This document shows, in pieces, positions 2,734 through 49,346 of a DNA stretch of 64,000 nt. The stretch is from positions 387,460 to 451,459 of the forward strand of contig JAUIJE010000005.1 in assembly GCA_030431455.1 (NCBI GenBank), written 5' to 3'. The stretch comes from a bacterium (lineage in GTDB: Bacteria > Myxococcota > UBA727 > JAUIJE01). The position numbers were made by a program, and so were the translations under genes. How positions within the stretch are numbered: the stretch's first letter is position 1; every line of letters begins with the position of its first letter. The notes under the pieces are model-generated. The model ran no database searches and was not told the DNA's origin. It was given only the letters and a program-made list of their open reading frames with translations.

Positions 2734-4533
2734 TCACAGCGGCATGCGCAACCGGAAGGTCGCGCCCGCGCCGGGCACCGACTCCGCCCGCACCTCGCCG
2801 TGGTGGTCTTTGGCCACCTTGCGCACCACCGCGAGCCCGAGCCCGGTGCCCTCTTCTTTGCCGTGGGTGGCGAACGACTCGAACAGCCGGCCTTGAATCT
2901 CCGGCGCCAGCCCCGGGCCGGTGTCGGCGCAGGCGAACTCGATCTGGTCGCCCACTTGCGAAATCGTCAACGTGAACCGGCCGCCCGCGTCCCCCATCGC
3001 TTCCTTGGCGTTTTTCGCGAGGTTGGCCAGGGCCCGCTTGAGCTTGACCTCGTCGAGGCGCGCCGACCCTTTGTATTGGGTCTCGACCGCCACCGTCACC
3101 GGGCTGTCTTTGAACAACGCGCGGAGCATGTCCTCGAGGTCGCGGGCCAGGTGTTGGCAGTACACCTTGCGCAGGAGCAGATCCGTGTCCCCGCGGGCGA
3201 ACCGCAACAGCTCCTTGGTCATGCTCGTCATCTGCTCGGTCTGTTTGACCACGATCTCGGCGCACCGGGCGCGTTCGGCCTCGTCGTCCTCCGACTCCAT
3301 CAACTGGACATAGCCAGAGATGATCGTCATGGGGGTCTTGAAATCGTGCACAATGCCGCTCAACATGTGGCCGATGGTCTTGAGCTGTTCGTCCTTCTTG
3401 GACTGGTCACGGCGTTTGGCGAGGATGAGCGCCCCCGCCACCCGGCCCGCGACCAGGCTGAGGATGCGCACGTCCTCGTCGGTGAACGGCACCTGTCCCG
3501 GCCCGCGCAACACCTCGAGGGCGCCCATGGCCGCGCCGGTGGTCTTGATCGGCACGCAGGCCACCGGTCCCGCGGGGAAGCCGATCTCGGCGGCCAGCGA
3601 GCGATCGTGCCGCGCGTCCTGCTGGGCGTCGGGGATGTTGATGACCTCCCCGCTCTCCACACACGCCCCGACGAGCCCGTGTTTGGGCGAGAGCGCCCGG
3701 CGGAGCAGCACCTCGCCCGGGGTGGTGGCCGCGGTGAACACCAAGCCAGCGGTCTTGTGGTCGACGACGGCCACGCTGGCCGCGCCCGCGTGGGTGATGC
3801 CCTGGATGCGTTCACAGATGACGTCGAACAGCTCCTGGGGATCTTGGGCCGCGGCCATGTGGTGCTCGAGCTCGACGAGGAAATCGAGCTCACGCACCCG
3901 CCGGGTCAGCCCCGCCTCGGCCTTCTCCAACGAGCGGGCCTTCTCGCGCAGCTCCTCGAACATCAGCGCATCGGTCAGCGCCACCGACACCTGGTGGGAC
4001 ACCGCCTCGAGCAGCCGCTCGTCGGTGGCGGAAAAGCCCCCGCCCCGTTTGTTGAGCGCCTCGACCACGCCCATCGGCTTGTCCCCTTTGCCCGGGATGG
4101 GCACGCACAGAAGATTGCGCGTGCGGTAGCCGGTCTGCTGGTCGACGTCCCGCTTGAACCGCTCGTCGGCGTAAGCGTCCGGCAGGTGCAGGGCCACGCC
4201 GGTCTTGGCCACCGTGCCCGCCACCCCCTGCCCGAGGGGCACGCGGATCTCCTTGGGGCCGTCCTCGGTCTTGTCCAGCCCCTCGGCCACCCGGCTCCAC
4301 AGTTCGCCCCGGTCCTCGTCCACCAAGAACAAGCTGGCCCGCTCACAGTCCACCAACTCGCTCACCTGGGCGATGATGTCGTCGAGCAGGGTGTCGAGTT
4401 CGAGACGACCGAGCAGGGCCTTGGCCGTCTTCTGCATCGACCGCAGACGTTTGCGGGACAGCTCCAGCGCGGCCTCGAGGGCGGCGTTCTCGTCGAGCAG
4501 CTCTTCGCGGGAGGGGGATTCGGCTTCGCTCAT
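2734..4533 (-). CDS. sensor histidine kinase with two GAF domains (GAF-GAF-HisKA-HATPase_c)
   Basis: 599 aa. H-box IVHDFKTPMTIISGY. G-boxes ADTGPGLAPE and GTGLGLAVV. Two GAF-like regions. The start codon overlaps the polA stop by 1 nt (TGATGA). Confidence 0.85.
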   Translation of the reverse strand: MSEAESPSREELLDENAALEAALELSRKRLRSMQKTAKALLGRLELDTLLDDIIAQVSELVDCERASLFLVDEDRGELWSRVAEGLDKTEDGPKEIRVPLGQGVAGTVAKTGVALHLPDAYADERFKRDVDQQTGYRTRNLLCVPIPGKGDKPMGVVEALNKRGGGFSATDERLLEAVSHQVSVALTDALMFEELREKARSLEKAEAGLTRRVRELDFLVELEHHMAAAQDPQELFDVICERIQGITHAGAASVAVVDHKTAGLVFTAATTPGEVLLRRALSPKHGLVGACVESGEVINIPDAQQDARHDRSLAAEIGFPAGPVACVPIKTTGAAMGALEVLRGPGQVPFTDEDVRILSLVAGRVAGALILAKRRDQSKKDEQLKTIGHMLSGIVHDFKTPMTIISGYVQLMESEDDEAERARCAEIVVKQTEQMTSMTKELLRFARGDTDLLLRKVYCQHLARDLEDMLRALFKDSPVTVAVETQYKGSARLDEVKLKRALANLAKNAKEAMGDAGGRFTLTISQVGDQIEFACADTGPGLAPEIQGRLFESFATHGKEEGTGLGLAVVRKVAKDHHGEVRAESVPGAGATFRLRMPL

Positions 4534-7292
4534 CAGTGTACCTCGGCCCAGTTGTCACCAATGCCACTGTCCACGAGAAGGGGCACGTCGAGCTCGGCCG
4601 CGGACAGCATCGCCGCCCCCACCAGGTCGCGGGTGGCGGGCGCGTCCTCTTCGTCGACCTCGAGCAACAGTTCGTCGTGGACCTGCAGCAGCAGCTTGGC
4701 CGCGGGCAGCTCTTTGCGCAGGGCCGCGTCGGCGTTGAGCATGGCGCGTTTGATGATGTCCGCGGCCGAGCCCTGGATGGGGGTGTTGATCGCCAAGCGC
4801 TCGCCCCGGGCGACCTCGCCACGGTTTTTGCTGTACAGCTCGGGCAACAGCCGTCGACGACCAAACAGGGTGGTGACAAACCCGTCCTTTTTCGCCTGCA
4901 CCAGCGCGTCGTCGTGCCATTGGCGAAAGCCGCCGTAGCGCTCGAAGTATTTGTTGATGAACGCCTTGGCCTCGGCGCGTTTGATGCCGAGCTCCCGGGC
5001 GAGCCGGAGCACCCCCATGCCGTAGAGCAAACCGAAGTTGATCGCCTTGGCCGCGGTGCGTTCGTCCTTGCTCACCTCGTCGAGGGCCTTGTCAAAAATC
5101 TCCGCCGCGGTGCGCCGGTGCACGTCCTCACCCTTTTGAAAGGTGTCGAGCATGACCGGGTCTTTTGTCACGTGGGCGAGCAAGCGCAGCTCAATCTGTG
5201 AATAGTCGAGGGACACGAGCTTCTTGCCCGGTGGGGCGATGAACGCCTGGCGAATGCGCCGCCCGAGGGGGGTGCGCGCGGGGATGTTCTGGAGGTTGGG
5301 CTCCGACGACGACAGGCGCCCGGTGGCGGCCACCGTCTGGTTGAACCGGGTGTGCACCCGCCCGGTGTCGGGCCGGATGATGCGCGGCAGCACGTCGATG
5401 TAGGTGTTCTTGAGCTTGGCCAGGACCCGGTGCTCGAGCACGATCTGGGGCAAGGGGTGTTTGTCCGCGAGCTGTTCGAGCACCGACGAGTCGGTGGACG
5501 CGCCGGTCTTGGTGCGCTTGACCACCTTGAGCCCGATTTTGTCGAACAGAAGCTCGGCCAGCTGCGACGGCGATTGCAGGTTGAACTCCTCGCCCGCGGC
5601 GTCGTACGCGCGTTTTTCGAGGTCAGCGAGTTCGGCCTCGAAGTCTTCGCCCACCAGGGCGAGCTTCTCGGTGTCGACGAGCACGCCCGCCGCTTCCATG
5701 CGCGCGAGCACCGGCTCCAGGGGCAGCTCGAGATCGGTGTAGAGGGTCTTGAGCTCGGCCTCGGCCAAGGCCTCGTCCATCTGGGGGGCGAGGTTGGCCA
5801 ATGTGTCTGTGCGCTGGTTGGCGTAGCGGGCGCACTCGTCCTTGTCGGTGAGCGCGTAGGGCTTTTGGCCTTTGCCCTTGCCCCGGATCGCGGTGTCCTC
5901 GAGCAGCTCCACGCCGAGGCGCCGCTTGGCCACCGCCTCGAGGTTGTGCCGGTCTTGGCTCGGGTCGAGCAGGTAGCTGGCCAGGGTCACGTCCGTGACC
6001 AGGCGCAGCTCGGGCCCGTGTTGGTCGAGCACCGCGCGCAGCGCGTCTTTGGCGTCGGCCGCGACCAGGCCCCGGCCCCGGATGCGCTCGAGCACGTCGG
6101 TGAGGGGGATGCGCACATCGGTGATGCGGTCGTCGTGGGCCACGGGCACGTACAGGGGGGACACAAACTCGTGGGCCACGGACAGGCCGATGACCTGGTC
6201 GGGGGCCGCCTCGGTGCGGTCGACGAGCACGTGCACCGCGAGCGGGCCGTCCTTGGGCAGGGCTTTCAGATACTTGTCGACGTCGTCCAGCGAAGTTGCC
6301 ACCGCGTACCCGCTCTCGTCGAGGGTCATCTCGGGGGCCACGGGTTCGCTCGGGCCGAACAGCTCTTGTTGGGGATGGCCCGCGGGCACGGCCGGCTTTT
6401 TGGGCACGTTCGCGCCCGACACGAGGGGGTCATCGAGCAGGCGGGTGAACTCAAACTCCACGAACAGCGCGGTGAGTTCGTCCTTGTTGGGGCCGGTGTA
6501 CTTGAGGTCGTCGAGGCGGAGGTTCAGGTCGAGGTCACACTTGATGCCCACCAACTGCTTGGACAGCCGGGCGTCGTCGGCGTGCTCGATCAGGCGCTCG
6601 CGCCGGGCCTTTTGTTTGATCTCGGGGGCGGCGGCGAGCACCGCCTCCAGGTCTCCATATTCATTGACGAGCTGGGCCGCGGTCTTGACCCCGATGCCCT
6701 TGACCCCAGGCACATTGTCGGAGCTGTCGCCGGCGAGGGCGAGCACATCGACCACCCGGGCGGGGGGCACGCCGAACTTCTCCTCGACCTCCTGGGCCGT
6801 GACCTCGGGCGAATCCGCCCCGCGCCCGGTGCGCATGTCGTCGATGAGGGTGACCTGGTCGTCGACCAGCTGCATCAAGTCCTTGTCCCCGGTGATGATC
6901 TTCACGGGGTGGCCAAGATCCTTGAACCGCAGCGCGGCGGTGCCGAGCACGTCGTCGGCCTCGACCCCAGCCATGGACAGGCGCGGGATCTGAAAGGCGT
7001 CCACCACCTCCTGGATGCGCGGCAATTGGGGCGGCAGCTCCTCGGGCGGTGGCGGCCGATTGGCCTTGTAGGCCGGGTAGAGCTCATGTCGGAACGTCTC
7101 GCCCCCCACGTCGAAGGCGATGGCCAGGTAGGCCGGCTCCCGCTCGCGGATGACCTTGAGCAGCATGTTGGCGAAGCCGTAGATCGCGTTGGTGGGGAAC
7201 CCATCGGTGGTGGACAGACGGCGCAGTGCGTAAAAAGCGCGGTAGATGTAGCCCGAGCCGTCGATGAGGTAGATGGTCGGTTTTTGGGCCAT
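4533..7292 (-). CDS. polA: DNA polymerase I
   Basis: 919 aa. It has a 5'-3' exonuclease N-terminus (IYLIDGSGYIYRAFYA), a 3'-5' exonuclease domain, and a family A polymerase domain (DYSQIELR, QVHDELL). Confidence 0.95.
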   Translation of the reverse strand: MAQKPTIYLIDGSGYIYRAFYALRRLSTTDGFPTNAIYGFANMLLKVIREREPAYLAIAFDVGGETFRHELYPAYKANRPPPPEELPPQLPRIQEVVDAFQIPRLSMAGVEADDVLGTAALRFKDLGHPVKIITGDKDLMQLVDDQVTLIDDMRTGRGADSPEVTAQEVEEKFGVPPARVVDVLALAGDSSDNVPGVKGIGVKTAAQLVNEYGDLEAVLAAAPEIKQKARRERLIEHADDARLSKQLVGIKCDLDLNLRLDDLKYTGPNKDELTALFVEFEFTRLLDDPLVSGANVPKKPAVPAGHPQQELFGPSEPVAPEMTLDESGYAVATSLDDVDKYLKALPKDGPLAVHVLVDRTEAAPDQVIGLSVAHEFVSPLYVPVAHDDRITDVRIPLTDVLERIRGRGLVAADAKDALRAVLDQHGPELRLVTDVTLASYLLDPSQDRHNLEAVAKRRLGVELLEDTAIRGKGKGQKPYALTDKDECARYANQRTDTLANLAPQMDEALAEAELKTLYTDLELPLEPVLARMEAAGVLVDTEKLALVGEDFEAELADLEKRAYDAAGEEFNLQSPSQLAELLFDKIGLKVVKRTKTGASTDSSVLEQLADKHPLPQIVLEHRVLAKLKNTYIDVLPRIIRPDTGRVHTRFNQTVAATGRLSSSEPNLQNIPARTPLGRRIRQAFIAPPGKKLVSLDYSQIELRLLAHVTKDPVMLDTFQKGEDVHRRTAAEIFDKALDEVSKDERTAAKAINFGLLYGMGVLRLARELGIKRAEAKAFINKYFERYGGFRQWHDDALVQAKKDGFVTTLFGRRRLLPELYSKNRGEVARGERLAINTPIQGSAADIIKRAMLNADAALRKELPAAKLLLQVHDELLLEVDEEDAPATRDLVGAAMLSAAELDVPLLVDSGIGDNWAEVH

Positions 7293-12612: not shown

Positions 12613-12780
12613 ACAACCTCCGCGTCCCTCGTGGGTTTGGCTTGGAATTCAACACCATCCGCACCGGGCTTGTTCCGTCAAGGTACGGGCAACCCCGGGT
12701 GCAGAAAAGGCCTTTTCCCCCGCTTGACGAGGGGCGAGCGGCAGGGATAGTTCTGGGCGGTCGTCGCGGTGCCAAAGTCT

Positions 12781-12867
12781 GCCGGAGTGGTGGAATTGGT
12801 AGACACGACGGATTCAAAATCCGTTGGGGGCGACCCCGTGTCGGTTCGAGTCCGACCTTCGGTACCA
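12781..12867 (+). tRNA. tRNA-Leu (anticodon CAA)
   Basis: 87 nt. Acceptor stem GCCGGAG/CTTCGGT (with G.U pairs). Anticodon stem ACGGA/TCCGT with loop TTCAAAA gives CAA. Long variable arm with a GGGG/CCCC stem. T-loop GGTTCGAGTCC. Discriminator A and encoded CCA. Confidence 0.85.
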
Positions 12868-12876
12868 GACGACAAA

Positions 12877-12904
12877 GAGGAGGCTTCGGCTTCCTCTTTT
12901 TTTT
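12877..12904 (+). terminator. rho-independent terminator after tRNA-Leu
   Basis: GAGGAGGC-TTCG-GCTTCCTC hairpin (8 bp, UUCG tetraloop) followed by TTTTTTTT. Confidence 0.75.
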
Positions 12905-12978
12905 GCGCGCTCGAAGGTTGTGGGACGCGGCACGCCGTCGAGGTGGCCGGGCACGCTACAACGCGGTGGGAGGTGTGT

Positions 12979-14181
12979 ATGTCGCGGCTCGTGTTGGTGG
13001 TGGTGGTGGTGTGTTCGACGTTGGTGTGGGGCACGGGGTGTCCCCCCGCGGAGGGCTGTCTGGAAGATGAGTCGCGCGCCTGCACCTGCACCGACGGCAA
13101 CACCGGGGCCCAGGTGTGCCAGGCCGATGGCACCCTCGGCGAATGTATCTGCACAGGAGACGGGGATGGCGACGGGGATGGAGATGGAGATGGAGACGGT
13201 GACGGGGACGGAGATGGCGACGGAGATGGCGACGGGGATGGCGACGGGGATGGCGACGGGGATGGCCACGGGGATGGCGACGGGGATGGCGACGGGGATG
13301 GCGACGGGGATGGCGACGGGGATGGAGACCTGTGCGGCAACGGGGTGATCGACCCCGGCGAAGACTGCGACGGCGAGGCCCTGGGGGGCGCGGATTGCGG
13401 CAGCCAGGGCTACGACTTCGGGCTGCTCGGCTGCACCGACTGCGCGTTCGACGCGTCCGCGTGTGGGGACGGGTGTGGGCCCTACCCCGCCGCGCTCGAC
13501 GTCAGCGACGTGTGCCGGCAATGCGCCGACGCGCGGTGCTGTGACGAGCTGAGCGCTTGTGTCCCCGGGTCGGCGTGCGATGACTACAACGGCTGCGTCA
13601 CCGCCTGCGCGGACAACCCCGGCTGCGTGCTGCAGTGCGAGAGCGACTTCGCCGCGGGCAAGTTCGACGCGGACGCGCTCGCCGCCTGCGCCCCCTCCTG
13701 CGCGGGCCTGTGCAGTAACAATGGGGTGTGCGCGTCCTCGCTCACCACCACCTTCGACACCGTGGACACGTGCGTCGACGCCAACTGCTGCACGCCGTTT
13801 GACGCCTGCCTCGGCGACGACGCGTGCACCGCCTGCCTCACCGGCGGCACCCTGGCCCCCGGCTGCGACACCAACCCGCTGCTCAGCGACATGACCACCT
13901 GCCAGGAGACCTCGTGTCCCTCCTCGCTGTGCGGCTCACCGCTGAGCGTGAACACCATCGAGGGCGCGCCCCTCGTCGACTGCCACCTGTGCGTCGAGAA
14001 CGCGGGCTGTTGCGCCGACCTCGCGGACTGTTTGGGAGGGGGCACCGAGGACGAAGTCGCGGACTGCATCGCCTGCCTCAACGACGACCCGATCGAGTGT
14101 CCGGTGGGCCCGGTGCAAGACGCGGCCAACGCGTTCCTGGCCTGTCAGATGACCCCGTGCCAAGCCGCGTGCAGCCTTTGA
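12979..14181 (+). CDS. secreted Cys-rich lipoprotein with an (Asp-Gly)29 tract and a Myxococcus cysteine-rich repeat module
   Basis: ATG at 12979 preceded by GGGAGG. Signal [21 protein letters not shown]. Then GDGDGD... followed by [23 protein letters not shown] (TIGR02232-like). About 60 Cys in total. The track ORF 12769..14181 includes the tRNA and is over-extended. Confidence 0.7.
13156..13329 (+). repeat. tandem hexanucleotide repeat (GAYGGN)29 encoding (Gly-Asp)n, in frame inside the CDS
   Basis: Direct reading: gga gac ggg gat ggc gac ggg gat ... with one GHG interruption. Confidence 0.9.
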
Positions 14182-14238: not shown

Positions 14239-15189
14239 TTGGGCGAGCCTCGGCCCGGAGGGTCCGTGACGCCTGAGAAGTTCGGTGATTTCGAGCTTTT
14301 ATCGCTCCTTGCACAGGGGGGCATGGCCGAGTTGTTCCTCGCCCGGCACCGCCCCACCGAGCAGCTCGTCGTGGTCAAGCGCCTGCTCCCCGAGCTCGAA
14401 GAGCGACCGGACATCATCGACCTGTTCTTGACCGAAGCCGACATCGGCCGCCTCCTCCGCCACGAGAACGTCGTCCAGGTGCTCGACGGGGGCGAGGTCT
14501 CCGGCCGCTACTACCTGGTCATGGAGTACGTCGACGGCGTAGACGCCGAAATCCTGCTCAGCGATGCCACCCGCCGCGGCGATCCCATCGCCCCCCGCAT
14601 CATTGTGCGCCTCGCGGTCGACGCCCTGCGCGGCCTCCACGCCGCGCACATGCTGACCTCCCCGCAAGGGACGAGCTTTGGCCTCGTGCACCGGGATGTC
14701 AGCCCCGACAACATCTTCATCACCCGGGCGGGCGTGCCCAAGGTCGCCGACTTCGGCATCGCCAAGCTCGCGTCCCTCGAGGGGGTCACGTCGACGGGGC
14801 TGCTCAAGGGCAAGCTCACCTATATGTCCCCCGAGCAGGTGCAACAAAAGCCGCTCGATGGCCGCGCCGACGAGTTCGCGGTGGGGCTCATCGTGTACGA
14901 GATGCTCAGCGGCCAGCGCCCGTTTTCGCAAGCCGACGGCGAGACCGAGATCGACGCGCTGCTGCGGGTGCGCAAGGGCAAAGTCCCGCCGTTGCGCAAG
15001 CTCGAACCGGGCCTGCCCCGGGCCCTGTGCAAGGTCGTCGACAAAGCCCTGCGGCCGGGACGGTGGCGCCGGTACAAATCCTGCGGCGCCTTCGCCGACG
15101 CTCTCGAGGAAGTGGGCCAAGCCCACGACTTGCTCGGGTCCCACCAAGAGCTCGCCGCCCTCGTCGAGCGCGTGCAGGTGGGGGAATAA
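14239..15189 (+). CDS. Hanks-type serine/threonine protein kinase
   Basis: Gly-loop LAQGGMAELFLA. VVVKRL Lys. HRDVSPDNIF catalytic loop. DFG as KVADFGIAK. APE as TYMSPE. Alternative start GTG 14266 with GGAGGG SD. Confidence 0.85.
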   Translation: MGEPRPGGSVTPEKFGDFELLSLLAQGGMAELFLARHRPTEQLVVVKRLLPELEERPDIIDLFLTEADIGRLLRHENVVQVLDGGEVSGRYYLVMEYVDGVDAEILLSDATRRGDPIAPRIIVRLAVDALRGLHAAHMLTSPQGTSFGLVHRDVSPDNIFITRAGVPKVADFGIAKLASLEGVTSTGLLKGKLTYMSPEQVQQKPLDGRADEFAVGLIVYEMLSGQRPFSQADGETEIDALLRVRKGKVPPLRKLEPGLPRALCKVVDKALRPGRWRRYKSCGAFADALEEVGQAHDLLGSHQELAALVERVQVGE

Positions 15190-15214
15190 TGCCAATGCAT
15201 GGACGGGGCACGGC

Positions 15215-16795
15215 ATGACCGACGGACAGCTCGGCGGCAGCCTCGAGGACCTCGAGCTCGACGAGGTCGTTCGCGTCATCGGCCTCTCGCGCCGGTCTGG
15301 CATCCTCCTGGTCGAGGGTCCCTGGGGCCGGGCCGAGATGGTGTTCGTGGTGGGCCACATCCGGTCCGTGCGCCACTCCGCGTCGACGGAGACGGTGGCC
15401 GACGTGTTGCTGCGCGCGGGGGTGTTTCATCCCCATGACCTGGTGAGCGACCCCGGCCGCACCGTCGACGACATCCTCCGGGACAAGAGCCGCACCGCGG
15501 TGGACGCGGCCACCCGCGCCGACGATGCGCTCCTCGAGCACATGGAAAAGACCGTGCTCGACGTGTTCGCTTACCGGCAGGGCACGTTCCGCTTTTCCCT
15601 CACCGAGCCGGGCCCCTGCCCCGACCGGTACCCGCGCGACACCACGTACATCGTGGCCGAAGGCCTCGACGCCGAACAGACCTGTGAGCGGGCCAAAAAG
15701 CGCCGCGGCCGCGGCCGCCATTCGCTGACCAAGACCCCGGGGCGCGAGGCCGACCAAGCCCCGGAGATCCTGGTCGTCGACGACGACCCCCGCTTCCTCG
15801 ACCGGTGCGCCCGGGCCCTGGAGGGGGCCGGGGTCCCGTTCCAGACCCTCGACGACGCGCGCCAAGGGTTGGACGCCCTCGACGCCCTCGCCGACAACCC
15901 CCGCGCGGTGTTGATCCTCGACCTGGTCATGCCCCGCCCCAACGGACGGGGCCTGCTCGGGGGCTTGCATCTGTTGCGTTTGGCCAGCCAACAGGGGGTC
16001 GCGGACCGCGTGTACATGGCGTTCGATCGCGCCCACGACGACGCCCATTCGATCTGCCTCGAGCTCGGCGCGGCCCAGGTGCTGAAAAAGCCGTCCGGGG
16101 TGCAACCCATCGGCCTGATGTTCAACCCCGTGCTCGAGCACCTCGGCCGCCCCCCCCTCCTGGCCGAACCCATCGATCTGGTGGGCGAGCTGCGCCAAGA
16201 GCTGGGCGAATCCGCCACCGAGTGGTCGGCCGATCCCGACCTCGACCTCGACGACGCCGCCCGCGGCCTGGAGATCCTGAAGTCGCTCCTCGCCCAGGTC
16301 AACAACCCCACCTACGAAGAAGAGATTCCGCTGTTGCTGTTGCGGTTCTCGTCGGCGTTCTTCTCGCGGGGGGCCCTGTTTGTGCCCCACGAACCCGACA
16401 ACAAACTCATCGGGCTCGGCGGCTACGGCGTCGGGCAGGCCGACCCGGGGCGCACCATTCACGCGCTGCACATCCCCCTCGCCGCCGACACCGTGTTCTC
16501 GCGCGCGATGCGCGAAAACACCGGGGTGCGCCAACCCTTTTTCGAGAGCGAATGGAACCTCCGCCTCACCGAGGCCCTCGGCGGCCCCCGCCCCCGCGAG
16601 GTGTACACCGCGCCGTTGCTCAGCCCGCGCGGGGTCGAAGCCGTGCTCTACGCCGACAACGCCCTCGACGACCACCCGTTCCCCGACATCACCCTGCTGG
16701 AGATTTTTCTCCAGCAGGCCGGGGCCGCGCTGGAGCGTTCGGACCTGGTGCGTGAGGTGCGCAACCTCAGCCAGCCGCCGATGGACGCACGCTGA
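15215..16795 (+). CDS. PATAN (DUF4388) - receiver (REC) - GAF domain regulator
   Basis: N-terminus DLELDEVVRVIGLSRRSGILLVE is PATAN-like. ILVVDDDPRF...VLILDLVMP...KKP is CheY-like REC. A C-terminal GAF-like region follows. Its stop overlaps the next start (TGATG). Confidence 0.7.
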   Translation: MTDGQLGGSLEDLELDEVVRVIGLSRRSGILLVEGPWGRAEMVFVVGHIRSVRHSASTETVADVLLRAGVFHPHDLVSDPGRTVDDILRDKSRTAVDAATRADDALLEHMEKTVLDVFAYRQGTFRFSLTEPGPCPDRYPRDTTYIVAEGLDAEQTCERAKKRRGRGRHSLTKTPGREADQAPEILVVDDDPRFLDRCARALEGAGVPFQTLDDARQGLDALDALADNPRAVLILDLVMPRPNGRGLLGGLHLLRLASQQGVADRVYMAFDRAHDDAHSICLELGAAQVLKKPSGVQPIGLMFNPVLEHLGRPPLLAEPIDLVGELRQELGESATEWSADPDLDLDDAARGLEILKSLLAQVNNPTYEEEIPLLLLRFSSAFFSRGALFVPHEPDNKLIGLGGYGVGQADPGRTIHALHIPLAADTVFSRAMRENTGVRQPFFESEWNLRLTEALGGPRPREVYTAPLLSPRGVEAVLYADNALDDHPFPDITLLEIFLQQAGAALERSDLVREVRNLSQPPMDAR

Positions 16796-17754
16796 TGCGC
16801 GGGGGCCGCCCCGCCGTCACAGTGGCATTGGTCGCGGTCGCCGCCGCCTGCCCCGCCCCCTACCCCGACGTGGACGCCTGGACCGAGCTCGCCCCCCTCG
16901 GCGGCGGGCCTCGCCAGGAGAGCGCGGTGGTCAACCTGCGCGACGAGGTCGTGGTCGTGGGCGGGGTGGACGCGGCCTCCAACACCCTCGCCACCGTCGA
17001 GGCCTACGACGTGGCCGGCGACGCCTGGCGCCGCCTCGCGGACCTGCCGGTGACCGCCCATCACGCGCACGTCGCCAGCTGCGGCGACCGCTTGTTTGTG
17101 CTCGGGTTTCTGCAAGGGCTCTCGTTCACCCCTGACCCCCGCGGCTTCGTGTACGACCCCGACGACGACGCGTGGTCGCCGGTGGCGGCCTTGCCCGCGC
17201 CCCACGACCGCGGCGGCGGCATCGCGTTGTGCGCATCCGACGGCGTGTACGTCATCGGTGGCCTCGCCGGCAACCCCGTGGCCACCGTGCACCGCTACGA
17301 CCCCGACGCGGACAGCTATGCTCAATTGGCCGACCTCCCCGCGGTGACCGACCACCTCGTGGGCGGGGTGATCGACGACGAAATCTTCGTGGCCGGGGGG
17401 CGCAACCGGTCCATCCGCGCCCACCGGGCGGATGTGTGGCGCTACGACCGCGCCGGTGACGCCTGGGTCGCGGGGGCGGACATGCCCACCTCCCGGGCCG
17501 GGGCCGCGGCCGCGGTGTCGGGCGGCGAGCTGTTCGTGTTCGGCGGCGAGGGGGACGCAAACGCCTCGAGCGGGGTGTTCGCCGAGGTCGAGGCCTACGA
17601 CCCGGTCTCCGATACCTGGCGCGAGCTCGATGACATGCCCCGGCCGCGCCACGGCATGGGGGCCGCGGCCGTGGGCAATGCCATTTACATCCCCGGCGGG
17701 GCCGACGTGCAGGGCTTTGCCGCGATCTCGCTACACGACAAATTCACGCCCTAG
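16795..17754 (+). CDS. Kelch-repeat beta-propeller lipoprotein
   Basis: 319 aa. Signal ending AAAC. Six repeats with GG-x-YD/WxxxxxMP motifs. Confidence 0.75.
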   Translation: MRGGRPAVTVALVAVAAACPAPYPDVDAWTELAPLGGGPRQESAVVNLRDEVVVVGGVDAASNTLATVEAYDVAGDAWRRLADLPVTAHHAHVASCGDRLFVLGFLQGLSFTPDPRGFVYDPDDDAWSPVAALPAPHDRGGGIALCASDGVYVIGGLAGNPVATVHRYDPDADSYAQLADLPAVTDHLVGGVIDDEIFVAGGRNRSIRAHRADVWRYDRAGDAWVAGADMPTSRAGAAAAVSGGELFVFGGEGDANASSGVFAEVEAYDPVSDTWRELDDMPRPRHGMGAAAVGNAIYIPGGADVQGFAAISLHDKFTP

Positions 17755-17766: not shown

Positions 17767-19776
17767 TCAGCCGCGCCGGCGCGACCGACCGCGCCCGCCG
17801 CCACCGCCCCCCGAGCGGCCCCCGGAGCGCCCTCCCGAGCGACCACCCGACCGCGACCGCCGCGAACGACGGGGCCGGCTCGCGCGCTGGCCCTTCTTGG
17901 GTTGTTTGTACTTTTTGTTGTGGGCCTCGGCGACGACCTTCCACTTCTGGACCTCGGCGAAGTCGCCGCCCTCGGCCTGGGTCCGGATGATCAGCAGCAG
18001 CAAGGCATCGCGGAACCAGGGCCGGGACACCAACGACTTCGCCGGCGCGCCGTAACGCCAGCCGGGCAACAAGGACTCTTGGGCCCCGAGCAGCAGCCGC
18101 GCCGACTCCCGATCGCGCCGGGTCATGCGGATGCGCTCGGCCCACTTGTCCCCGATGTCGTCGACGAACTGGGCGCCATCGAGCCCGCCGGCCACCGCCG
18201 CGTCGTACGCGGGGGTGAGCAACACCGAGAGCGCGACCGCGCTGTTCACGTCCGCTTCGCGGGCCGCGACCTCGTCGAGGGCGCCGAGCAACTTGTCGAG
18301 CAGCTCCCAGCGGGCCGCGGGCTCGAGCGGCGCCGCGGGCACGGGGAGGCGACCGGGGTCGAGGTCGTCGTCCTGGTCGTCGCGTCGCTTGCCCCCTTTG
18401 TCCCCTTCGCTCCCCTCGGCGTCGCCGGACAGCTGGGCCGCGATCCCGACCACGTCGTCGTCGTCATCGTCGTCGTCCCCGTCATCGAAGCTGTCGATGT
18501 CCACCGTCTTGGGCCGCTCGCCCTCGGCCTGGGCCTCGGCCGCGTCCTCGGCTTTGGTCTCATCGTCGGCGGGGGCCGTGTCTTTCGAACCCGCGTCAGA
18601 CGCCGCCGCCTCCACCACCGGCGCCTGCCGGGCCGCGTCCATCGCCTCCACCAACTCGGGCAGCAACGTCTGGGTCACCCCGAAATCCGCGCACATCGCC
18701 ATCGCCTCGCGGGCGTGGCCCGAGGTCAAAAGCCGGTTGAGCTCTTCGAGCAGGCGGGCCGGCGCGCACCGCAGCAGCTCTTTGGCGTGCTCGCGCATCG
18801 CGCTTTTGACATCCTCGTCGAGGGTGAACCCCATGCGGGTGGCGAACTTGATCGCGCGCAGGATGCGCACCGGATCTTCTTGGAACCGGATGTGGGGGTC
18901 GCCGATGCTGCGCAACAGCCGCTTTTCGAGGTCCTCGCGGCCGTTGACGTAGTCGATGACCTTGCCCGCGATGGGGTCGTAGAACAGCCCGTTGATGGTG
19001 AAGTCGCGGCGCACCGCGTCCTCCTCGACGTTGCCGAACTCGTTGTCCCGCTCGACGAGCAGGTCCTGGTCCCCGGTGTCCTCGGTGGTCTCCTCGTCCC
19101 CGTCGCTGTCCCCGTCGCCGTCGTTGTCGTCCGGGGTCGGATTCTTCCGGAAGGTGGCGGTCTCGATCACCTTGCCCCCCGCGAACAACACGTGGGCCAG
19201 GCGGAAGCGGCGGCCCACCAGCCGGCAGTTGCGGAACACCGACTTGACCTCGTCGGGGTGGGCGGCGGTGGCCACGTCAAAATCCTTCGGTTCGCGCCCG
19301 AGCAACAAGTCGCGCACGCACCCCCCGGTGAGATACGCCTCGTGCCCCTTGGCCCGAAGACGGCGCACCACCCACAGCGCGTCGTTGTCGATCTTCTTGA
19401 GCGGAATCTCGGGGGGGTCGCCGCTCTCCTCGGCGCCTTGTTCGTCGTCGTCGTCGCGGTCGTCGTCCGCGTCGTCCCCTTCGCCGCCCCCTCGACGTCC
19501 CCGGGCCGCGGGGCGGGCGAGGCGCTCGGTGCGTTCGTCGTCGTCCGCATCATCGTCGCCCCCGTCGTCATCGTCGGCGTCATCCTCGTCGTCCGCGCCG
19601 TCGTCATCGTCGGCGGCCGAGGCCTGGGGTTCTTCTTCTTCCTCTTCCTCGTCGCTGTCGTCGCCGGAGGCCGCGGTCACGGGGCCGGACTCGGTGGAGA
19701 CCTCTTCGATCTCCATGGTCTCGGTGTCGTCGTGCTCAGCGTTGGTGTCTTTGTCATCTTGCATGGTCATGGCCAT
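17767..19776 (-). CDS. pcnB: poly(A) polymerase I with a ~250 aa acidic (D/E-rich) N-terminal extension and an Arg/Gly/Ser-rich C-terminal tail
   Basis: Head domain LTGGCVRDLLLGREPKDFDVAT. RRDFTINGLFYD. PcnB-type probe-binding region. Start MAMTMQDD chosen (cat 19774-19776). The track ORF extends to 20601 in frame but overlaps coaX. Tail (SGGR)n. Confidence 0.8.
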   Translation of the reverse strand: MAMTMQDDKDTNAEHDDTETMEIEEVSTESGPVTAASGDDSDEEEEEEEPQASAADDDDGADDEDDADDDDGGDDDADDDERTERLARPAARGRRGGGEGDDADDDRDDDDEQGAEESGDPPEIPLKKIDNDALWVVRRLRAKGHEAYLTGGCVRDLLLGREPKDFDVATAAHPDEVKSVFRNCRLVGRRFRLAHVLFAGGKVIETATFRKNPTPDDNDGDGDSDGDEETTEDTGDQDLLVERDNEFGNVEEDAVRRDFTINGLFYDPIAGKVIDYVNGREDLEKRLLRSIGDPHIRFQEDPVRILRAIKFATRMGFTLDEDVKSAMREHAKELLRCAPARLLEELNRLLTSGHAREAMAMCADFGVTQTLLPELVEAMDAARQAPVVEAAASDAGSKDTAPADDETKAEDAAEAQAEGERPKTVDIDSFDDGDDDDDDDDVVGIAAQLSGDAEGSEGDKGGKRRDDQDDDLDPGRLPVPAAPLEPAARWELLDKLLGALDEVAAREADVNSAVALSVLLTPAYDAAVAGGLDGAQFVDDIGDKWAERIRMTRRDRESARLLLGAQESLLPGWRYGAPAKSLVSRPWFRDALLLLIIRTQAEGGDFAEVQKWKVVAEAHNKKYKQPKKGQRASRPRRSRRSRSGGRSGGRSGGRSGGGGGGRGRSRRRG

Positions 19777-19784
19777 TGGTCCTG

Positions 19785-20585
19785 TTATTTGGCGGAACCG
19801 CCCGGGCCTTTGCGCCGGACATCGCGGTTCATGTCGTAGAGTATGCGGAGGCCGTCGAGGGTCAAAAACTCGTCGACGGTGTCGATGGTTCGACTTTCCT
19901 CCGCGATGAGGTGCGCGAGGCCACCGGTGGCCATCACCTTGGTGCCTTCGCCCAGTTCTTGTTGCATGCGGCCGGCGAGCTCGTCGACCAGACCGACATA
20001 TCCGTAAAAGAGCCCCGACTGGAGGGCCCCGATGGTGTTCTTTCCCACCACCCGCTGCGGCCGGCGAATCTCGACCCGCGGCAGCTTCGCCGCCCGGCGA
20101 AACAGCGCGTCCATCGAGACCACCACCCCGGGGGCGATGGCTCCCCCGAGGTAGGCGCCGTCTTCCCGCACCGCATCGAAGGTGGTCGCGGTCCCGAAGT
20201 CGACGACGATGAGCGCACACTTGAACCGGGTCCAAGCCGCCACCGCGTTGACGATGCGGTCCGCCCCCACCTCGGCCGGTTGGTCGGTGAGGATGGGCAT
20301 TTGGGTTTTGACCCCCGGGCCGACCACAATCGGCTCGAACCCGAAGTACCGCAGGCTCGCTTCTTCGAACGCACGGTTGAGCTGCGGCACGACGCTGGCG
20401 AGGATCACGCCCTCGATTTGCGTGGGCTCGACGCCCTGTCGCTCCAGCAGCGACAAGACGAGCGTCCCGTATTCGTCCGCGGTCCCCGACGCCATGGTCG
20501 AGATGCGGAAATGGTGCGTGAGCTGCTCGCCCTCGTAGAGGCCGAGCACGGTGTTGGTGTTGCCCACGTCGATGACCAGCAGCAT
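19785..20585 (-). CDS. coaX: type III pantothenate kinase
   Basis: MLLVIDVGNTNTVLGL. DFGTATTFD. GGLA. 266 aa. Confidence 0.9.
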   Translation of the reverse strand: MLLVIDVGNTNTVLGLYEGEQLTHHFRISTMASGTADEYGTLVLSLLERQGVEPTQIEGVILASVVPQLNRAFEEASLRYFGFEPIVVGPGVKTQMPILTDQPAEVGADRIVNAVAAWTRFKCALIVVDFGTATTFDAVREDGAYLGGAIAPGVVVSMDALFRRAAKLPRVEIRRPQRVVGKNTIGALQSGLFYGYVGLVDELAGRMQQELGEGTKVMATGGLAHLIAEESRTIDTVDEFLTLDGLRILYDMNRDVRRKGPGGSAK

Positions 20586-20615
20586 CTGCGCCGCTTAGCA
20601 CCCTCTTGGCGGGCG

Positions 20616-21456: not shown

Positions 21457-22086
21457 CTAGACCGGCAAAACCGGCGGAAGCGCGGCGCAGGCCGCGCCGA
21501 CGACCAAGCCGAGCGAGGCCCCGGCGAGCACGTCGAGCGGGTAGTGCACGCCGAGGTACATGCGGGCGTACCCGACGACGACCGCGAGGGAGATGATCAG
21601 GGGGTAGACCGCGGGGGGCAACAGCGGGGCCCAGGCCACCGCCAGGGCGAGCGCGGCCGCGGTGTGGCCGGACGGGAACGAGAACTGGTCGGGCGGGACC
21701 AAGAGCCGCACGTCGAGCGCGGGCCGGGCCCGGCGCACCGCCCGCTTGAGCACGACGACGACCATCGAGCACGCGGTGAGCGTGATGATCGCGCGTTCGC
21801 CCAGGGCGGTGGCCCCGCCGAGGACGAGCACGCCCATCCACAGGGGCGCGACCATGGGGTCGAGCAGGCGGCACAACAGGGTGAGCACAAACGTGATCAC
21901 CGGCTGGCGGCGCCGCACCAGCCGCCGCAGCAAACGGTCGTCGAACGCGGCCAAGCGGGCCAGGCGCCCGACGGGCAACGCGCCCACCCCCGCGCCGTTC
22001 ACCAGGCCCGGGCCCGGCATCGCCAACGACCGCGCGTGGTGGGGCCGGGCGGGGGTGTGGTGGGCGCGGCGGCGCGAGGTCGACAT
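21457..22086 (-). CDS. PAP2-family (phosphatidic acid phosphatase type 2) membrane phosphatase
   Basis: KRAVRRARP...PSGHTAAA...HYPLDVLAG motifs. Several TM segments. The true start may be internal. Confidence 0.7.
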   Translation of the reverse strand: MSTSRRRAHHTPARPHHARSLAMPGPGLVNGAGVGALPVGRLARLAAFDDRLLRRLVRRRQPVITFVLTLLCRLLDPMVAPLWMGVLVLGGATALGERAIITLTACSMVVVVLKRAVRRARPALDVRLLVPPDQFSFPSGHTAAALALAVAWAPLLPPAVYPLIISLAVVVGYARMYLGVHYPLDVLAGASLGLVVGAACAALPPVLPV

Positions 22087-22109
22087 GGTGCTCTCCGTGT
22101 GCGGCCGGT

Positions 22110-23630
22110 GTGCCGCGGGTGGGAGATTCGTTCGCAGCGCGCGCGATTCGCCCTACACTCGCGAAGATGAGCAAGCCGGGTGCCATGTCGGGCGACGAGG
22201 TCACGCATCCCCTGCCCGGGGCCGCCACGCCCCTGTCGTTGCCGCCCGGCCCCCGCGCGGTGGCCGACGCGCTGTTGGCCGCCGGGGGCCGGCCCGTCGC
22301 GGTGGGCGGCTGCGTGCGCGACCACCTGCTCGGCCGGGACGCGCACGACATCGACATCGAGTGTTACGCGCTCGACGAGGCCGCGCTCACCACGGCGCTG
22401 GAGACGGTGGGGAGCGTACACGCGGTGGGGCGTTCGTTCGGGGTGCTCAAGGTCTCGGCCGCCGGCGAGGTCGTCGACGTGGCCCTGCCCCGGACCGAGA
22501 GCAAAGAGGGGCGCGGCCACCGCGGGTTTTTGGCCAGCGCCGACCCCCACTTGCCGTTCGAGGTCGCGGCCGCCCGGCGCGACTTCACCTGCAACGCGAT
22601 GGGCGTGGACCTGACGGACGGCGCCTTGCTCGACCCCCACGGGGGCCAGGCCGACCTGGCCGCGGGCCGTCTGCGCCACGTGTCACCCGCCTTCGCCGAA
22701 GACCCCTTGCGGGTGTTGCGCGCCTGCCAGTTCGCCGCGCGGTTCGCGTTGACCATCCATGATGACACATTGGCATTGTGCAAAAGCCTCGAGCCCGAGC
22801 TCGCCACCCTGCCCGCCGAGCGCCTGTACGAAGAGCTGAAGAAGGTGCTCCGCGCCCCCTGGCCGTCGTTGGGCTTGGCCGCCCTCGGTCCCACCGGCGC
22901 GCTCTCGCTCTTCCCCGAGCTCGCCGCGATGCAGAACGTCCCCCAAGAACCCGAGTGGCACCCCGAGGGCGACGTCTTCACCCACACCCTGCTCGTCGTC
23001 GACGAAGCCGCCCGCCTGTGCCGCCAACAAGCGCTCCCCGAGGACGAAGCCTTGCGCGTGCTGTTTGGCGCGCTGTGCCACGACCTGGGCAAGCCGGCCA
23101 CGACCACCCACGAAGACGGCCGCATCAAGAGCAAGAACCACGAATCGGAGGGCGAGCCCCCCACCCGCTCGTTCATGGCCCGGCTCGGCGCCCCCAAAGA
23201 CCTCGTCGACGACGTGGTCGACCTGGTGCGCGACCACCTCAAGCCCTTCCAGCTCTACAAGGACCGCGACGTCATCAAAGACGGCGCCATCCGACGCCTC
23301 GCGGTCCGCGTGCCCATCGATCGCTTGTGTCGCGTGGCCCGGGCCGACCACTTCGGCCGCACCACCAAAGAAGCCCTCGCCCACGACGACCCCGCCAGCC
23401 CTTGGCTGCAAAAACGCGCCCAAGACCTGCACGCCTACGACCAGCGCCCCCAACCGTTGCTCCAGGGCCGCCACCTCATCGCCCGCGGCCACAAGCCCGG
23501 CCGCGCCTTCCGCCCCGTGCTCGACGCGGCCTTCTCCGCCCAGCTCGACGGGGCCTTCGCCGACCTCGACGAGGCCGAGGCCTGGCTCGACGACCACATC
23601 GACCAACTGTTCGCCGAGGCCGAGGCCTGA
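22110..23630 (+). CDS. cca: CCA-adding tRNA nucleotidyltransferase with a C-terminal HD domain
   Basis: GGCVRDHLLGRDAHDIDIE head. RRDFTCNAM. HD domain HTLLVVDEA...LCHDLGKP. The start may be the internal ATG (MSKPGAMSG). Confidence 0.85.
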   Translation: MPRVGDSFAARAIRPTLAKMSKPGAMSGDEVTHPLPGAATPLSLPPGPRAVADALLAAGGRPVAVGGCVRDHLLGRDAHDIDIECYALDEAALTTALETVGSVHAVGRSFGVLKVSAAGEVVDVALPRTESKEGRGHRGFLASADPHLPFEVAAARRDFTCNAMGVDLTDGALLDPHGGQADLAAGRLRHVSPAFAEDPLRVLRACQFAARFALTIHDDTLALCKSLEPELATLPAERLYEELKKVLRAPWPSLGLAALGPTGALSLFPELAAMQNVPQEPEWHPEGDVFTHTLLVVDEAARLCRQQALPEDEALRVLFGALCHDLGKPATTTHEDGRIKSKNHESEGEPPTRSFMARLGAPKDLVDDVVDLVRDHLKPFQLYKDRDVIKDGAIRRLAVRVPIDRLCRVARADHFGRTTKEALAHDDPASPWLQKRAQDLHAYDQRPQPLLQGRHLIARGHKPGRAFRPVLDAAFSAQLDGAFADLDEAEAWLDDHIDQLFAEAEA

Positions 23631-24978: not shown

Positions 24979-25411
24979 AACCTGCCTCGTTGAAGATGAG
25001 GGTCACGTTGCCGATCTGCACCGCGTCCCCGTGGTGCAACACCGCGGAGTGGACGCGCAGACCGTTGAGATAAATGCCATTGCGGCTGTCGAGGTCCCGC
25101 GCGCAGTATTCGCGCCCGTCGCACTGAATCTCGACGTGCAGGCGCGACAACTCCGGGCTATCCACGGTGAAGTCCGCGGCCTTGCTCCGCCCCACGGTCA
25201 TGCGCTCCCGGGTAAGGACCAAGTCGCGGGGCGCGCCGGGGCCGGTGATCTGCCGCATCGCGGGCGGGCGTTGGGCGTTCTCGGGGAGCAGGAGGCGGAT
25301 GGACGCCTCGGTGGTTTGGCTTTCGCTCCATGACTCCATGGCCTGCTCGGCGGAGATGCCGCTCTCAGGCGCAATCGTCATCGGGTCGTCGGTGTCGTCT
25401 CGCCCCGCCAT
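24977..25411 (-). CDS. FHA domain protein
   Basis: MTVGRSKAADFTVDSPELSRLHVEI...SRNGIYLNG is a canonical FHA fold signature. Confidence 0.8.
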   Translation of the reverse strand: MAGRDDTDDPMTIAPESGISAEQAMESWSESQTTEASIRLLLPENAQRPPAMRQITGPGAPRDLVLTRERMTVGRSKAADFTVDSPELSRLHVEIQCDGREYCARDLDSRNGIYLNGLRVHSAVLHHGDAVQIGNVTLIFNEAG

Positions 25412-25509
25412 GCGGGTTCACCTTAGACCGATCCGCATCAGAAAGGGCAGTCCCCGGCCACGTTTTTGTCCCCGATCACGCTCCCGGAGCGCGACCGGGG
25501 ACACACCGC

Positions 25510-46062: not shown

Positions 46063-48452
<2,390 letters not shown>

Positions 48453-49341: not shown

Positions 49342-49346
49342 GCGCG

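What the first reader, a model, noticed from the sequence alone, without database searches (positions are those of the whole stretch)
14239..17754. Ser/Thr kinase - PATAN/REC/GAF regulator - Kelch lipoprotein operon
A Hanks kinase sits 26 nt upstream of a protein combining a PATAN (DUF4388) domain, a CheY-like receiver and a GAF domain. The regulator's stop overlaps the start of a 6-bladed Kelch lipoprotein. PATAN-REC proteins (the PatA type) partner small GTPase polarity modules in cyanobacteria and myxobacteria. An STK directly coupled to one suggests Ser/Thr phosphorylation input into a PATAN-type polarity or motility regulator, with an extracytoplasmic beta-propeller as a possible output or receptor.
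Basis: partly seen in the sequence, partly recalled or inferred. Interest (0 to 1): 0.55.

Follow-up and report, generated by a model that had tools for sequence, protein, structure and literature searches.

The report
Soluble kinase paired with PATAN-REC-GAF regulator
A small soluble Ser/Thr kinase gene sits next to a three-domain signalling protein (PATAN, receiver, GAF) in almost every relative found in one uncultured Myxococcota lineage, whereas the more distant relatives in Geobacter-type bacteria lead a chemotaxis-like gene cluster instead; the Kelch lipoprotein gene next door is an optional neighbour.

Summary

The conserved unit is the kinase-regulator pair, found in 16 of 17 related Myxococcota loci. 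The kinase (62-71% identity) is better conserved than the regulator (37-49%). Kelch occurs in only 5 of 14 loci and is not core.

The 25-31%-identical relatives in Desulfuromonadales/Geobacteraceae have no kinase. In nearly all of 68 loci they are the first gene of a che cluster (CheY-CheA-CheW...CheR-CheB) with no mcp in the one locus with domain calls. This resembles cyanobacterial PixG.

In the kinase-linked clade the receiver keeps its Asp pocket but has lost the Ser/Thr switch residue. It has also gained a linker insertion with a near-invariant Trp.

Best reading: a Hanks kinase has taken over, or supplements, CheA as input to a PatA-like regulator. No GTPase, pilus or che genes lie in the window, so a polarity or motility role is analogy only. 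This is a new variant of a known kind, of moderate interest.

The parts
12781..12867 (+). tRNA-Leu(CAA). It is followed by a strong intrinsic terminator at 12874-12899, which marks the upstream boundary of the transcription unit.
   Evidence: ARAGORN; Rfam tRNA, 56 bits; terminator and promoter-like site at 12724-12751.
12979..14181 (+). Cys-rich lipoprotein with a long (GD)n linker. It is found only in this window and may be co-transcribed with the kinase, but it is not part of the conserved module.
   Evidence: ATG 12979 follows GGGAGG. The signal is [21 protein letters not shown]. No Pfam family. No homologue in any related locus. The longer ORF from 12769 overlaps the tRNA and is spurious.
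14266..15189 (+). Soluble kinase made of a Hanks kinase domain only (307 aa, PknB-like).
   Evidence: Pfam Pkinase E 1.8e-34. PknB E 3e-35, with the activation-loop VTST aligned to the VTQT stretch of the PknB activation loop. VVVKRL, HRDVSPDN, DFG and SPE are conserved in orthologues.
15215..16795 (+). PATAN-REC-GAF regulator (526 aa).
15236..15670 (+). PATAN/DUF4388 domain (residues 8-152), with a helical insertion at about residues 61-118.
   Evidence: Pfam E 1.5e-12; secondary structure of the model.
15767..16102 (+). Receiver domain (residues 185-296). D190, D191, D236 and K292 are present. The Ser/Thr switch position is Phe270.
16205..16249 (+). Disordered REC-GAF linker insertion (residues 331-345) carrying the near-invariant Trp337. 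This is a candidate docking motif (inference).
   Evidence: pLDDT below 50. W is present in 73 of 77 kinase-linked sequences, and this position is a gap in all 73 che-linked sequences. The EW motif is also present in the PATAN-less L090 partner.
16250..16771 (+). GAF-fold domain (residues about 346-519). It is the most conserved part of the protein.
16795..17754 (+). Six-bladed Kelch lipoprotein, translationally coupled to the regulator. It is an accessory gene, not core.
   Evidence: Kelch_1 E 3.5e-45; ATG overlaps the TGA; orthologues and signal peptides; present in 5 of 14 loci.

Best explanation
The kinase and the PATAN-REC-GAF protein form a two-gene cytoplasmic signalling module.

The regulator belongs to a large uncharacterised family. 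In Desulfuromonadales its members head che clusters, and there they are presumably phosphorylated on the receiver Asp by CheA, as cyanobacterial PixG is. In this Myxococcota lineage a dedicated, sensor-less PknB-like kinase is the partner instead. I infer the following steps:
1. The kinase binds the regulator, possibly through the clade-specific Trp-containing linker insertion.
2. It phosphorylates the regulator on Thr or Ser.
3. This changes how the REC-GAF part holds the PATAN domain, which is the protein-binding output.

The GAF domain would add a small-ligand or dimerisation input.

Shown: the domain architecture, the conserved adjacency, the che-linked relatives, the intact kinase motifs, and the altered receiver. 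Inferred: the direction of signalling, the phosphosites, the target of PATAN, and any role in motility. The Kelch lipoprotein is co-expressed here but is not part of the module.
For: - The kinase lies directly upstream of the regulator in 16 of 17 Myxococcota-clade loci with enough upstream sequence. The flanking genes vary (tRNA, lipoprotein, DUF4139, ribF), and in the P0073 lineage the two genes overlap by 4 nt.
- Kinase orthologues are 62-71% identical in the same loci, against 37-49% for the regulator. This indicates strong purifying selection on the kinase.
- By my hand comparison of the two hit tables, about 34 kinase clusters share a contig length with a regulator cluster.
- The catalytic motifs and an activation-loop Thr are conserved in about 100 kinase orthologues.
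- In nearly all of 68 Desulfuromonadales loci the homologue is followed by CheY-CheA-AAA-CheW-CheY-CheW-ZnR/REC-HEAT-CheR-REC-CheB, and none has a kinase hit.
- The receiver differs between clades. The switch position is Leu or Phe (52 of 77) in the kinase-linked clade, against Ser (40) or Ala (18) of 73 in the che-linked clade. The Lys is K64/R12 against K73. The Asp residues are kept in both.
- The W337 insertion is specific to the kinase-linked clade and is retained in the PATAN-less partner of a distant kinase.
- In cyanobacteria the PATAN domain is the output domain and binds PilB1 and PilC (PMC11181946; bioRxiv 10.1101/2021.06.11.447907).
Against: - There is no biochemical evidence, and gene adjacency does not give the direction of signalling.
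- The receiver's acidic pocket (D190, D191, D236, K292) is intact in the window, so a histidine kinase could still be the real input.
- The catalytic-loop Lys of HRDxKxxN is Ser in the whole kinase family, so activity cannot be assumed.
- The clade-specific Thr residues T60 and T83 sit at helix N-caps and may be structural only.
- L010 lacks the kinase in the 795 nt upstream of its regulator.
- A distant kinase homologue (P0190) stands alone with no partner.
- Nothing in the window links the module to pili, gliding or polarity.
Confidence: 0.5

Rival explanations
1. Signalling runs the other way. The regulator is the sensory subunit of the kinase. It would sense through its GAF domain (ligand) and its receiver (phosphorylation by an orphan histidine kinase), bind the sensor-less kinase and switch it on or off. 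The kinase would then phosphorylate other cellular targets.
For: - The kinase is a bare catalytic domain with no sensor, transmembrane or docking domain, so it needs an external regulator.
- The receiver's Asp pocket is conserved.
- GAF is the most conserved part of the regulator.
- The kinase tracks the REC-GAF part even where PATAN is absent.
Against: - The che-linked relatives are positioned as the first gene of the cluster next to CheY and CheA, like the output regulator PixG. This suggests the family's ancestral role is as a receiver of signals.
- The Ser/Thr switch residue needed for normal receiver signalling is lost in this clade.
Confidence: 0.27
2. Kinase, regulator and Kelch lipoprotein act together as one pathway. 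The extracytoplasmic propeller is the receptor or output of a PATAN-type polarity or motility regulator that partners a small GTPase.
For: - The regulator's stop codon overlaps the Kelch start in the window, and the two genes overlap in L084 and L088.
- Kelch orthologues stay within the same conserved block in L005 and L087.
- The literature notes that MglA/MglB genes often lie near PATAN genes.
Against: - Kelch is present in only 5 of 14 loci with enough downstream sequence. In two of those five, two PmbA/TldD genes lie between it and the regulator.
- No membrane component connects a lipoprotein to the two cytoplasmic proteins.
- No GTPase, Roadblock or pilus genes are in the 64-kb window.
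Confidence: 0.08
3. The adjacency is inherited synteny without a direct functional link. The kinase and the regulator simply sit in a stable chromosomal block (M48 peptidase ... kinase, regulator ... AidB-like acyl-CoA dehydrogenase).
For: - All kinase-linked loci come from one lineage of uncultured Myxococcota.
- The M48 peptidase and the AidB-like dehydrogenase are also recurrent neighbours. The dehydrogenase lies downstream in 13 of 14 loci.
Against: - Genes are inserted or lost on both sides (lipoprotein, PmbA/TldD pair, Kelch, methyltransferase), yet the pair is separated only once, by a 1.9-kb insertion next to an integrase gene in L087.
- The two genes overlap by 4 nt in one lineage.
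- The regulator acquired clade-specific features that coincide with the kinase partnership.
- The partnership persists at 45% kinase identity with a remodelled partner.
Confidence: 0.12

Closest known systems
Cyanobacterial PatA-type response regulators (PixG, PixE, LsiR, PatA; PATAN-REC)
   Same: - An N-terminal PATAN/DUF4388 domain with a helical insertion, followed by a receiver with the phospho-acceptor Asp.
- The Desulfuromonadales relatives are the first gene of a che-like operon and are followed by a single-domain CheY and a CheA. In the Tax1 system, likewise, the histidine kinase PixL phosphorylates both the PATAN-REC protein PixG and the single-domain receiver PixH.
   Different: - An extra C-terminal GAF domain.
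- A different phylum.
- In the window's clade the neighbour is a Hanks kinase, not CheA.
- The receiver lacks the Ser/Thr switch residue.
- No pilus genes are nearby, and binding to PilB or PilC is untested.
che clusters of Geobacter and other delta-proteobacteria that lack an mcp gene (the 'beta group' of Tran et al. 2008, PMC2577667)
   Same: The 25-31%-identical homologues head a conserved che cluster with cheA, cheW, cheR and cheB. No mcp appears in the one locus with domain calls (L086). This matches the published description of the beta group.
   Different: - The identity of the two clusters is inferred from the description, not checked gene by gene.
- The window has no che genes at all.
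Hanks kinase to response regulator cross-talk (for example PknH-DosR, Stk1-CovR, StkP-RitR; recalled from general knowledge)
   Same: A Ser/Thr kinase acts on a receiver-containing regulator and so bypasses or supplements His-Asp signalling.
   Different: - Those kinases are membrane sensors, and their regulators are DNA-binding proteins encoded elsewhere.
- Here the kinase is soluble and minimal, its gene is fused into an operon with its presumed partner, and that partner has a protein-binding PATAN output.
M. tuberculosis PknB kinase domain
   Same: - It is the best solved-structure relative (E 3e-35).
- The VAIK Lys, HRD Asp, Asn, DFG and SPE motifs are conserved.
- The activation-loop VTST aligns with the VTQT stretch of the PknB activation loop. 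By recall, that stretch holds the PknB autophosphorylation sites T171 and T173.
   Different: - No transmembrane segment and no PASTA domains.
- The catalytic-loop Lys is replaced by Ser (HRDVSPDN).
- An 8-residue insertion lies before the HRD motif.

Membership tests
PatA-type response regulator (PATAN-REC) | N-terminal PATAN/DUF4388 domain with an alpha-helical insertion | tested here: met
   Pfam PF14332 E 1.5e-12, 48 bits against a cutoff of 25, residues 8-152. The model shows helices 61-118 inserted between beta strands.
PatA-type response regulator (PATAN-REC) | Receiver domain after PATAN, with a phospho-acceptor Asp | tested here: met
   PF00072 scores 36.4 bits against a cutoff of 30.2. 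D236 is invariant in 29 sequences and present in 74 of 77 and 73 of 73 sequences in the two clades.
PatA-type response regulator (PATAN-REC) | Two-domain architecture that ends with the receiver | tested here: not met
   A 180-residue GAF-fold domain follows the receiver.
PatA-type response regulator (PATAN-REC) | Encoded in a che-like (Tax) operon with a CheA-type kinase | tested here: not met
   There are no che genes in the window. The feature is met only by the Desulfuromonadales relatives.
PatA-type response regulator (PATAN-REC) | PATAN binds the type IV pilus motor (PilB or PilC) | not testable with these tools
   This needs an interaction assay. Pilus genes lie near the pair in only one related locus.
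Canonical phosphorylatable receiver domain | Acidic pair, phospho-acceptor Asp and conserved Lys | tested here: met
   D190, D191, D236 and K292 are present. The acidic pair is lost in L010 and in the L090 partner.
Canonical phosphorylatable receiver domain | Ser/Thr switch residue at the end of beta-4 (CheY T87) | tested here: not met
   The position is Phe270 in the window and Leu or Phe in 52 of 77 kinase-linked sequences. It is Ser (40) or Ala (18) of 73 in che-linked homologues.
Active Hanks-type Ser/Thr kinase | Beta-3 Lys, alpha-C Glu, HRD Asp, catalytic Asn, DFG and APE motifs | tested here: met
   VVVKRL, TEAD, HRD, N, DFG and SPE are present and conserved in orthologues.
Active Hanks-type Ser/Thr kinase | Catalytic-loop Lys of HRDxKxxN | tested here: not met
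   The motif is HRD(V/I)SPDN in 98 of 101 orthologues. PknB has HRDVKPAN.
Active Hanks-type Ser/Thr kinase | Phosphotransfer activity | not testable with these tools
   This needs an in vitro kinase assay.
GAF domain | GAF fold | tested here: met
GAF domain | Match to the Pfam GAF sequence models | tested here: not met
   The window protein gives no GAF hit at E<=10. A homologue scores 24.6 bits against a cutoff of 28.6.
Kelch beta-propeller lipoprotein | Kelch repeats forming a six-bladed propeller | tested here: met
   Kelch_1 E 3.5e-45 and NANM 85 bits against a cutoff of 45. Six GG blade motifs are visible in the sequence. The structure was not modelled.
Kelch beta-propeller lipoprotein | Lipoprotein signal peptide with a lipobox Cys | tested here: inconclusive
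   VAVAAAC fits the general lipobox pattern, and the L084 orthologue has LATAC. No dedicated predictor was available.
PATAN with MglA/MglB polarity module | A small Ras-like GTPase and a Roadblock gene in the neighbourhood | tested here: not met
   No such Pfam hit appears among about 50 window ORFs or in the gene tables of related loci.

The most novel reading that the evidence does not exclude
In this Myxococcota lineage a dedicated minimal Hanks kinase has replaced CheA as the input to a PatA-like regulator. It would dock on a newly acquired Trp-containing linker motif and phosphorylate Thr residues. The receiver would then be a structural pseudo-receiver. This would be a documented evolutionary swap of the phosphorylation chemistry (His-Asp to Ser/Thr) that feeds one and the same output protein.
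Probability: 0.3. Interest if true: 0.6.

Novelty: new variant of a known kind. Interest (0 to 1): 0.42.

Why it matters
PATAN proteins are common in environmental bacteria but are understood only in cyanobacteria, where CheA-type kinases drive them to steer type IV pili. This work defines a large uncharacterised PATAN-REC-GAF family, with 672 representatives (one per 50%-identity cluster) at E<=1e-30. The family has two alternative wirings: che clusters in Desulfuromonadales, and a dedicated soluble Hanks kinase in a Myxococcota lineage.

If the kinase does phosphorylate the regulator, the pair is a compact and testable example of one signalling output being rewired from His-Asp to Ser/Thr phosphorylation. 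The sequence changes that go with the rewiring can already be named: the lost receiver switch residue, the gained Trp linker motif, and the clade-specific Thr residues.

It is not a new kind of system, and the organisms involved are uncultured.

Tried and rejected
- **Pfam GAF detection.** A scan of the window's C-terminal 226 residues at E<=10 gave no GAF hit. The fold search settled the question.
- **Curated families.** No NCBIfam model reaches its cutoff for any of the three proteins or the upstream lipoprotein.
- **The 470-aa upstream ORF (12769-14181).** It was first treated as a gene. It overlaps tRNA-Leu and its terminator, so the gene was re-called from ATG 12979.
- **Clade-specific Ser/Thr as phosphosites.** T60, T83, T143 and T465 are specific to the kinase-linked clade. 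T60 and T83 sit at helix N-caps, and T60 is Asn (also an N-cap residue) in the other clade. They remain weak candidates only.
- **Polarity or motility context.** About 50 ORFs across the 64-kb window were scanned and none is a GTPase, Roadblock, pilus or che gene.
- **Names for distant family members.** Only generic labels were found, such as 'response regulator' and 'DUF4388 domain-containing protein'.
- **Literature.** The listed results included only three papers that contain DUF4388, and none describes a kinase partner.
- **Rfam scan of the window.** It found only the tRNA.
Full report
**What is in the window**

The window is about 69% GC. True genes show high GC1, low GC2 and very high GC3. 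Three co-directional genes fill the reported interval.

- **Kinase.** It has Pfam Pkinase at E 1.8e-34. Its best solved relative is the M. tuberculosis PknB kinase domain at E 3e-35. The most likely start is GTG 14266, four bases after GGAGG. Independent gene calls on identical metagenomic contigs use the same start and give 307 aa.
- **Regulator.** After a 25-nt spacer it begins at ATG 15215 and runs for 526 aa. Pfam finds DUF4388/PatA_N (E 1.5e-12, residues 8-152) and Response_reg (E 6.4e-9, residues 185-296).
- **Kelch.** The regulator's TGA shares one base with the ATG of a 319-aa Kelch protein. That protein has Kelch_1 at E 3.5e-45, six blade motifs and a lipobox-like N-terminus.
- **Boundaries.** Kelch ends 12 nt from the stop of a convergent poly(A) polymerase gene. 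Upstream lie a tRNA-Leu (12781-12867) with a strong terminator and then a Cys-rich (GD)n lipoprotein (12979-14181). That lipoprotein occurs in no related locus.

**Which genes belong together**

The regulator has about 80 full-length homologues in the word-indexed search, all 527-572 aa. A scan of species-representative genomes returned 80 loci.

In the Myxococcota clade (37-49% identity in the locus scan, 37-54% among the protein hits) an orthologous kinase lies directly upstream in 16 of 17 loci that have enough upstream sequence.
- In 14 of those loci the gap is under about 200 nt.
- In the P0073 lineage the two genes overlap by 4 nt.
- In L087 a 1.9-kb insertion next to an integrase gene separates them.
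- The exception is L010, where tRNA-like sequence abuts the regulator.

In these same loci the kinase is 62-71% identical while the regulator is only 37-49% identical. A kinase search found about 100 orthologues of 52-75% identity, nearly all 290-340 aa. By my hand comparison of the two hit tables, about 34 of them share a contig length with a regulator cluster.

The surrounding genes vary. Upstream there is a tRNA, the lipoprotein, DUF4139 proteins or ribF. Downstream there is a PmbA/TldD pair in eight loci. Kelch occurs in five loci: directly downstream in the window, L084 and L088, and after PmbA/TldD in L005 and L087. An AidB-like acyl-CoA dehydrogenase follows in 13 of 14 loci. The conserved unit is thus kinase plus regulator. 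Kelch is an accessory neighbour in one subclade.

**The relatives that change the picture**

Homologues of 25-31% identity, aligned over their full length, occur in Desulfuromonadales and Geobacteraceae, including cultured Geobacter, Geomonas and Geothermobacter. None has an adjacent kinase.

In nearly all of 68 loci the homologue follows der. It is the first gene of a conserved cluster: CheY, CheA, an AAA protein, CheW, CheY, CheW, a Zn-ribbon receiver, a HEAT-repeat protein, CheR, a receiver and CheB. The one locus with domain calls (L086) has no mcp gene.

This fits the published description of the delta-proteobacterial 'beta group' che clusters, which also lack an mcp gene and have no known function (PMC2577667). 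I did not check that equivalence gene by gene.

The arrangement recalls the cyanobacterial Tax1 system. There the histidine kinase PixL phosphorylates the PATAN-REC protein PixG and the single-domain receiver PixH, only phosphorylated PixG binds the pilus motor PilB1, and the PATAN domain is regarded as the output (PMC11181946).

An exhaustive profile search shows that the family is large. It returns 672 representatives (one per 50%-identity cluster) at E<=1e-30, including REC-GAF variants and probable PATAN-GAF variants. Public records label the members only generically, and no NCBIfam model covers them.

**Sequence changes that accompany the kinase partnership**

I compared 77 kinase-linked sequences with 73 che-linked sequences.
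- Both clades keep the receiver's acidic pair and phospho-acceptor Asp.
- The Ser/Thr switch residue is Ser or Ala in the che-linked clade, but Leu or Phe in the kinase-linked clade (Phe270 in the window).
- The conserved Lys is Arg in 12 of the 77 kinase-linked sequences.
- The acidic pair is lost outright in L010 and in the L090 partner.
- The kinase-linked clade has an insertion in the disordered REC-GAF linker (pLDDT below 50, residues 331-345). It carries a Trp in 73 of 77 sequences and is a gap in all 73 che-linked sequences.
- Four Thr positions (60, 83, 143, 465) are also clade-specific. Two of them are helix N-caps and may be structural.

A more distant kinase (45% identity, locus L090) lies in the same M48 ... 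poly(A) polymerase synteny. It is followed by a 375-aa homologue that has the receiver, the EW linker motif and GAF, but no PATAN (hhalign probability 100%, E 2.5e-53). The kinase therefore tracks the REC-linker-GAF part, not PATAN.

**The kinase**

It is a bare catalytic domain. The beta-3 Lys, alpha-C Glu, HRD Asp, Asn, DFG and SPE motifs are all conserved. The activation-loop VTST aligns with the VTQT stretch of the PknB activation loop. By recall, that stretch holds the PknB autophosphorylation sites T171 and T173.

One atypical feature runs through the whole family. The catalytic-loop Lys is Ser (HRD(V/I)SPDN in 98 of 101 sequences). Activity is likely, given the strong conservation, but it is not certain.

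**Mechanism**

The best-supported reading (confidence about 0.5) is a two-gene module. The soluble kinase would bind and phosphorylate the regulator on Ser or Thr, supplementing or replacing the CheA-to-Asp input used by the che-linked relatives. PATAN would be the protein-binding output, and GAF a ligand or dimerisation input.

The main rival (about 0.27) reverses the direction, so that the regulator is the sensory subunit of a kinase that has no sensor of its own.

Pure synteny (about 0.12) is unlikely. The pair persists through local rearrangements, and the regulator changed in step with the partnership.

Kelch is sporadic. About 50 ORFs across the window include no GTPase, Roadblock, pilus or che gene. 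Only one related locus has pilBTC/pilSR nearby.

**Verdict**

This is a new variant of a known kind: a PatA-like regulator with an added GAF domain and a dedicated Hanks kinase partner. The apparent swap of input between CheA and a Ser/Thr kinase is a clean, testable hypothesis. It is not a new class of system, and its cellular role is unknown.

Noticed in passing
window 46066-49407 (-): A 1114-aa protein with a full-length eukaryote-type protein-arginine deiminase domain (Pfam PAD, E 5.7e-67, residues 714-1110). By recall, this family is uncommon in bacteria. It is flanked by a 2OG-Fe(II) oxygenase ORF and a MORN-repeat protein.
   Followed up: no
window 12979-14181 (+): A lipoprotein with a run of about 35 Gly-Asp dipeptides followed by a Cys-rich domain. 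It has no Pfam family and no homologue in any related locus. It has been inserted between tRNA-Leu and the kinase.
   Followed up: partly
window 12724-12899 (+): tRNA-Leu(CAA) with a promoter-like site and a textbook terminator. tRNA-like sequence also lies just upstream of the kinase, or of the regulator in L010, in loci L003, L084 and L010. The tRNA may therefore be an old boundary of this module.
   Followed up: partly
loci L001-L005, L007, L008, L087; and L001-L005, L008, L010-L012, L084, L087-L089: A PmbA/TldD gene pair directly follows the regulator in eight loci. An AidB-like acyl-CoA dehydrogenase follows in 13 of 14 loci. Both are absent from the window. The dehydrogenase is a steadier neighbour of the pair than Kelch is.
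   Followed up: partly
locus L086 10001-21591 and 67 similar loci: A conserved che cluster in Desulfuromonadales, with no mcp in L086. It is headed by the PATAN-REC-GAF homologue and contains an AAA protein, a Zn-ribbon receiver and a 670-aa HEAT-repeat protein. By recall, the HEAT protein resembles the Cpc7 partner of the M. xanthus Che7 system.
   Followed up: partly
window 17767-20601 (-) and 21897-23630 (+): Two PolyA_pol-family genes lie within 4 kb of each other. One is a pcnB-like ORF of 944 aa whose domain starts only at residue 422, so the ORF start is probably over-called (orthologues are about 670 aa). The other is a CCA-adding type with an HD domain.
   Followed up: no
window 2737-4554 (-): A GAF-GAF-HisKA-HATPase histidine kinase about 10 kb upstream of the pair. 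A GAF-containing histidine kinase also lies about 3 kb upstream of the kinase gene in L087. It is a possible, untested phosphodonor for the regulator's intact Asp pocket.
   Followed up: no
window 24980-25417 (-) and 63196-63867 (-); window 52643-53362 (-): Two small FHA-domain proteins, which are phospho-Thr readers that could belong to Ser/Thr kinase signalling, and a TANGO2-family protein.
   Followed up: no
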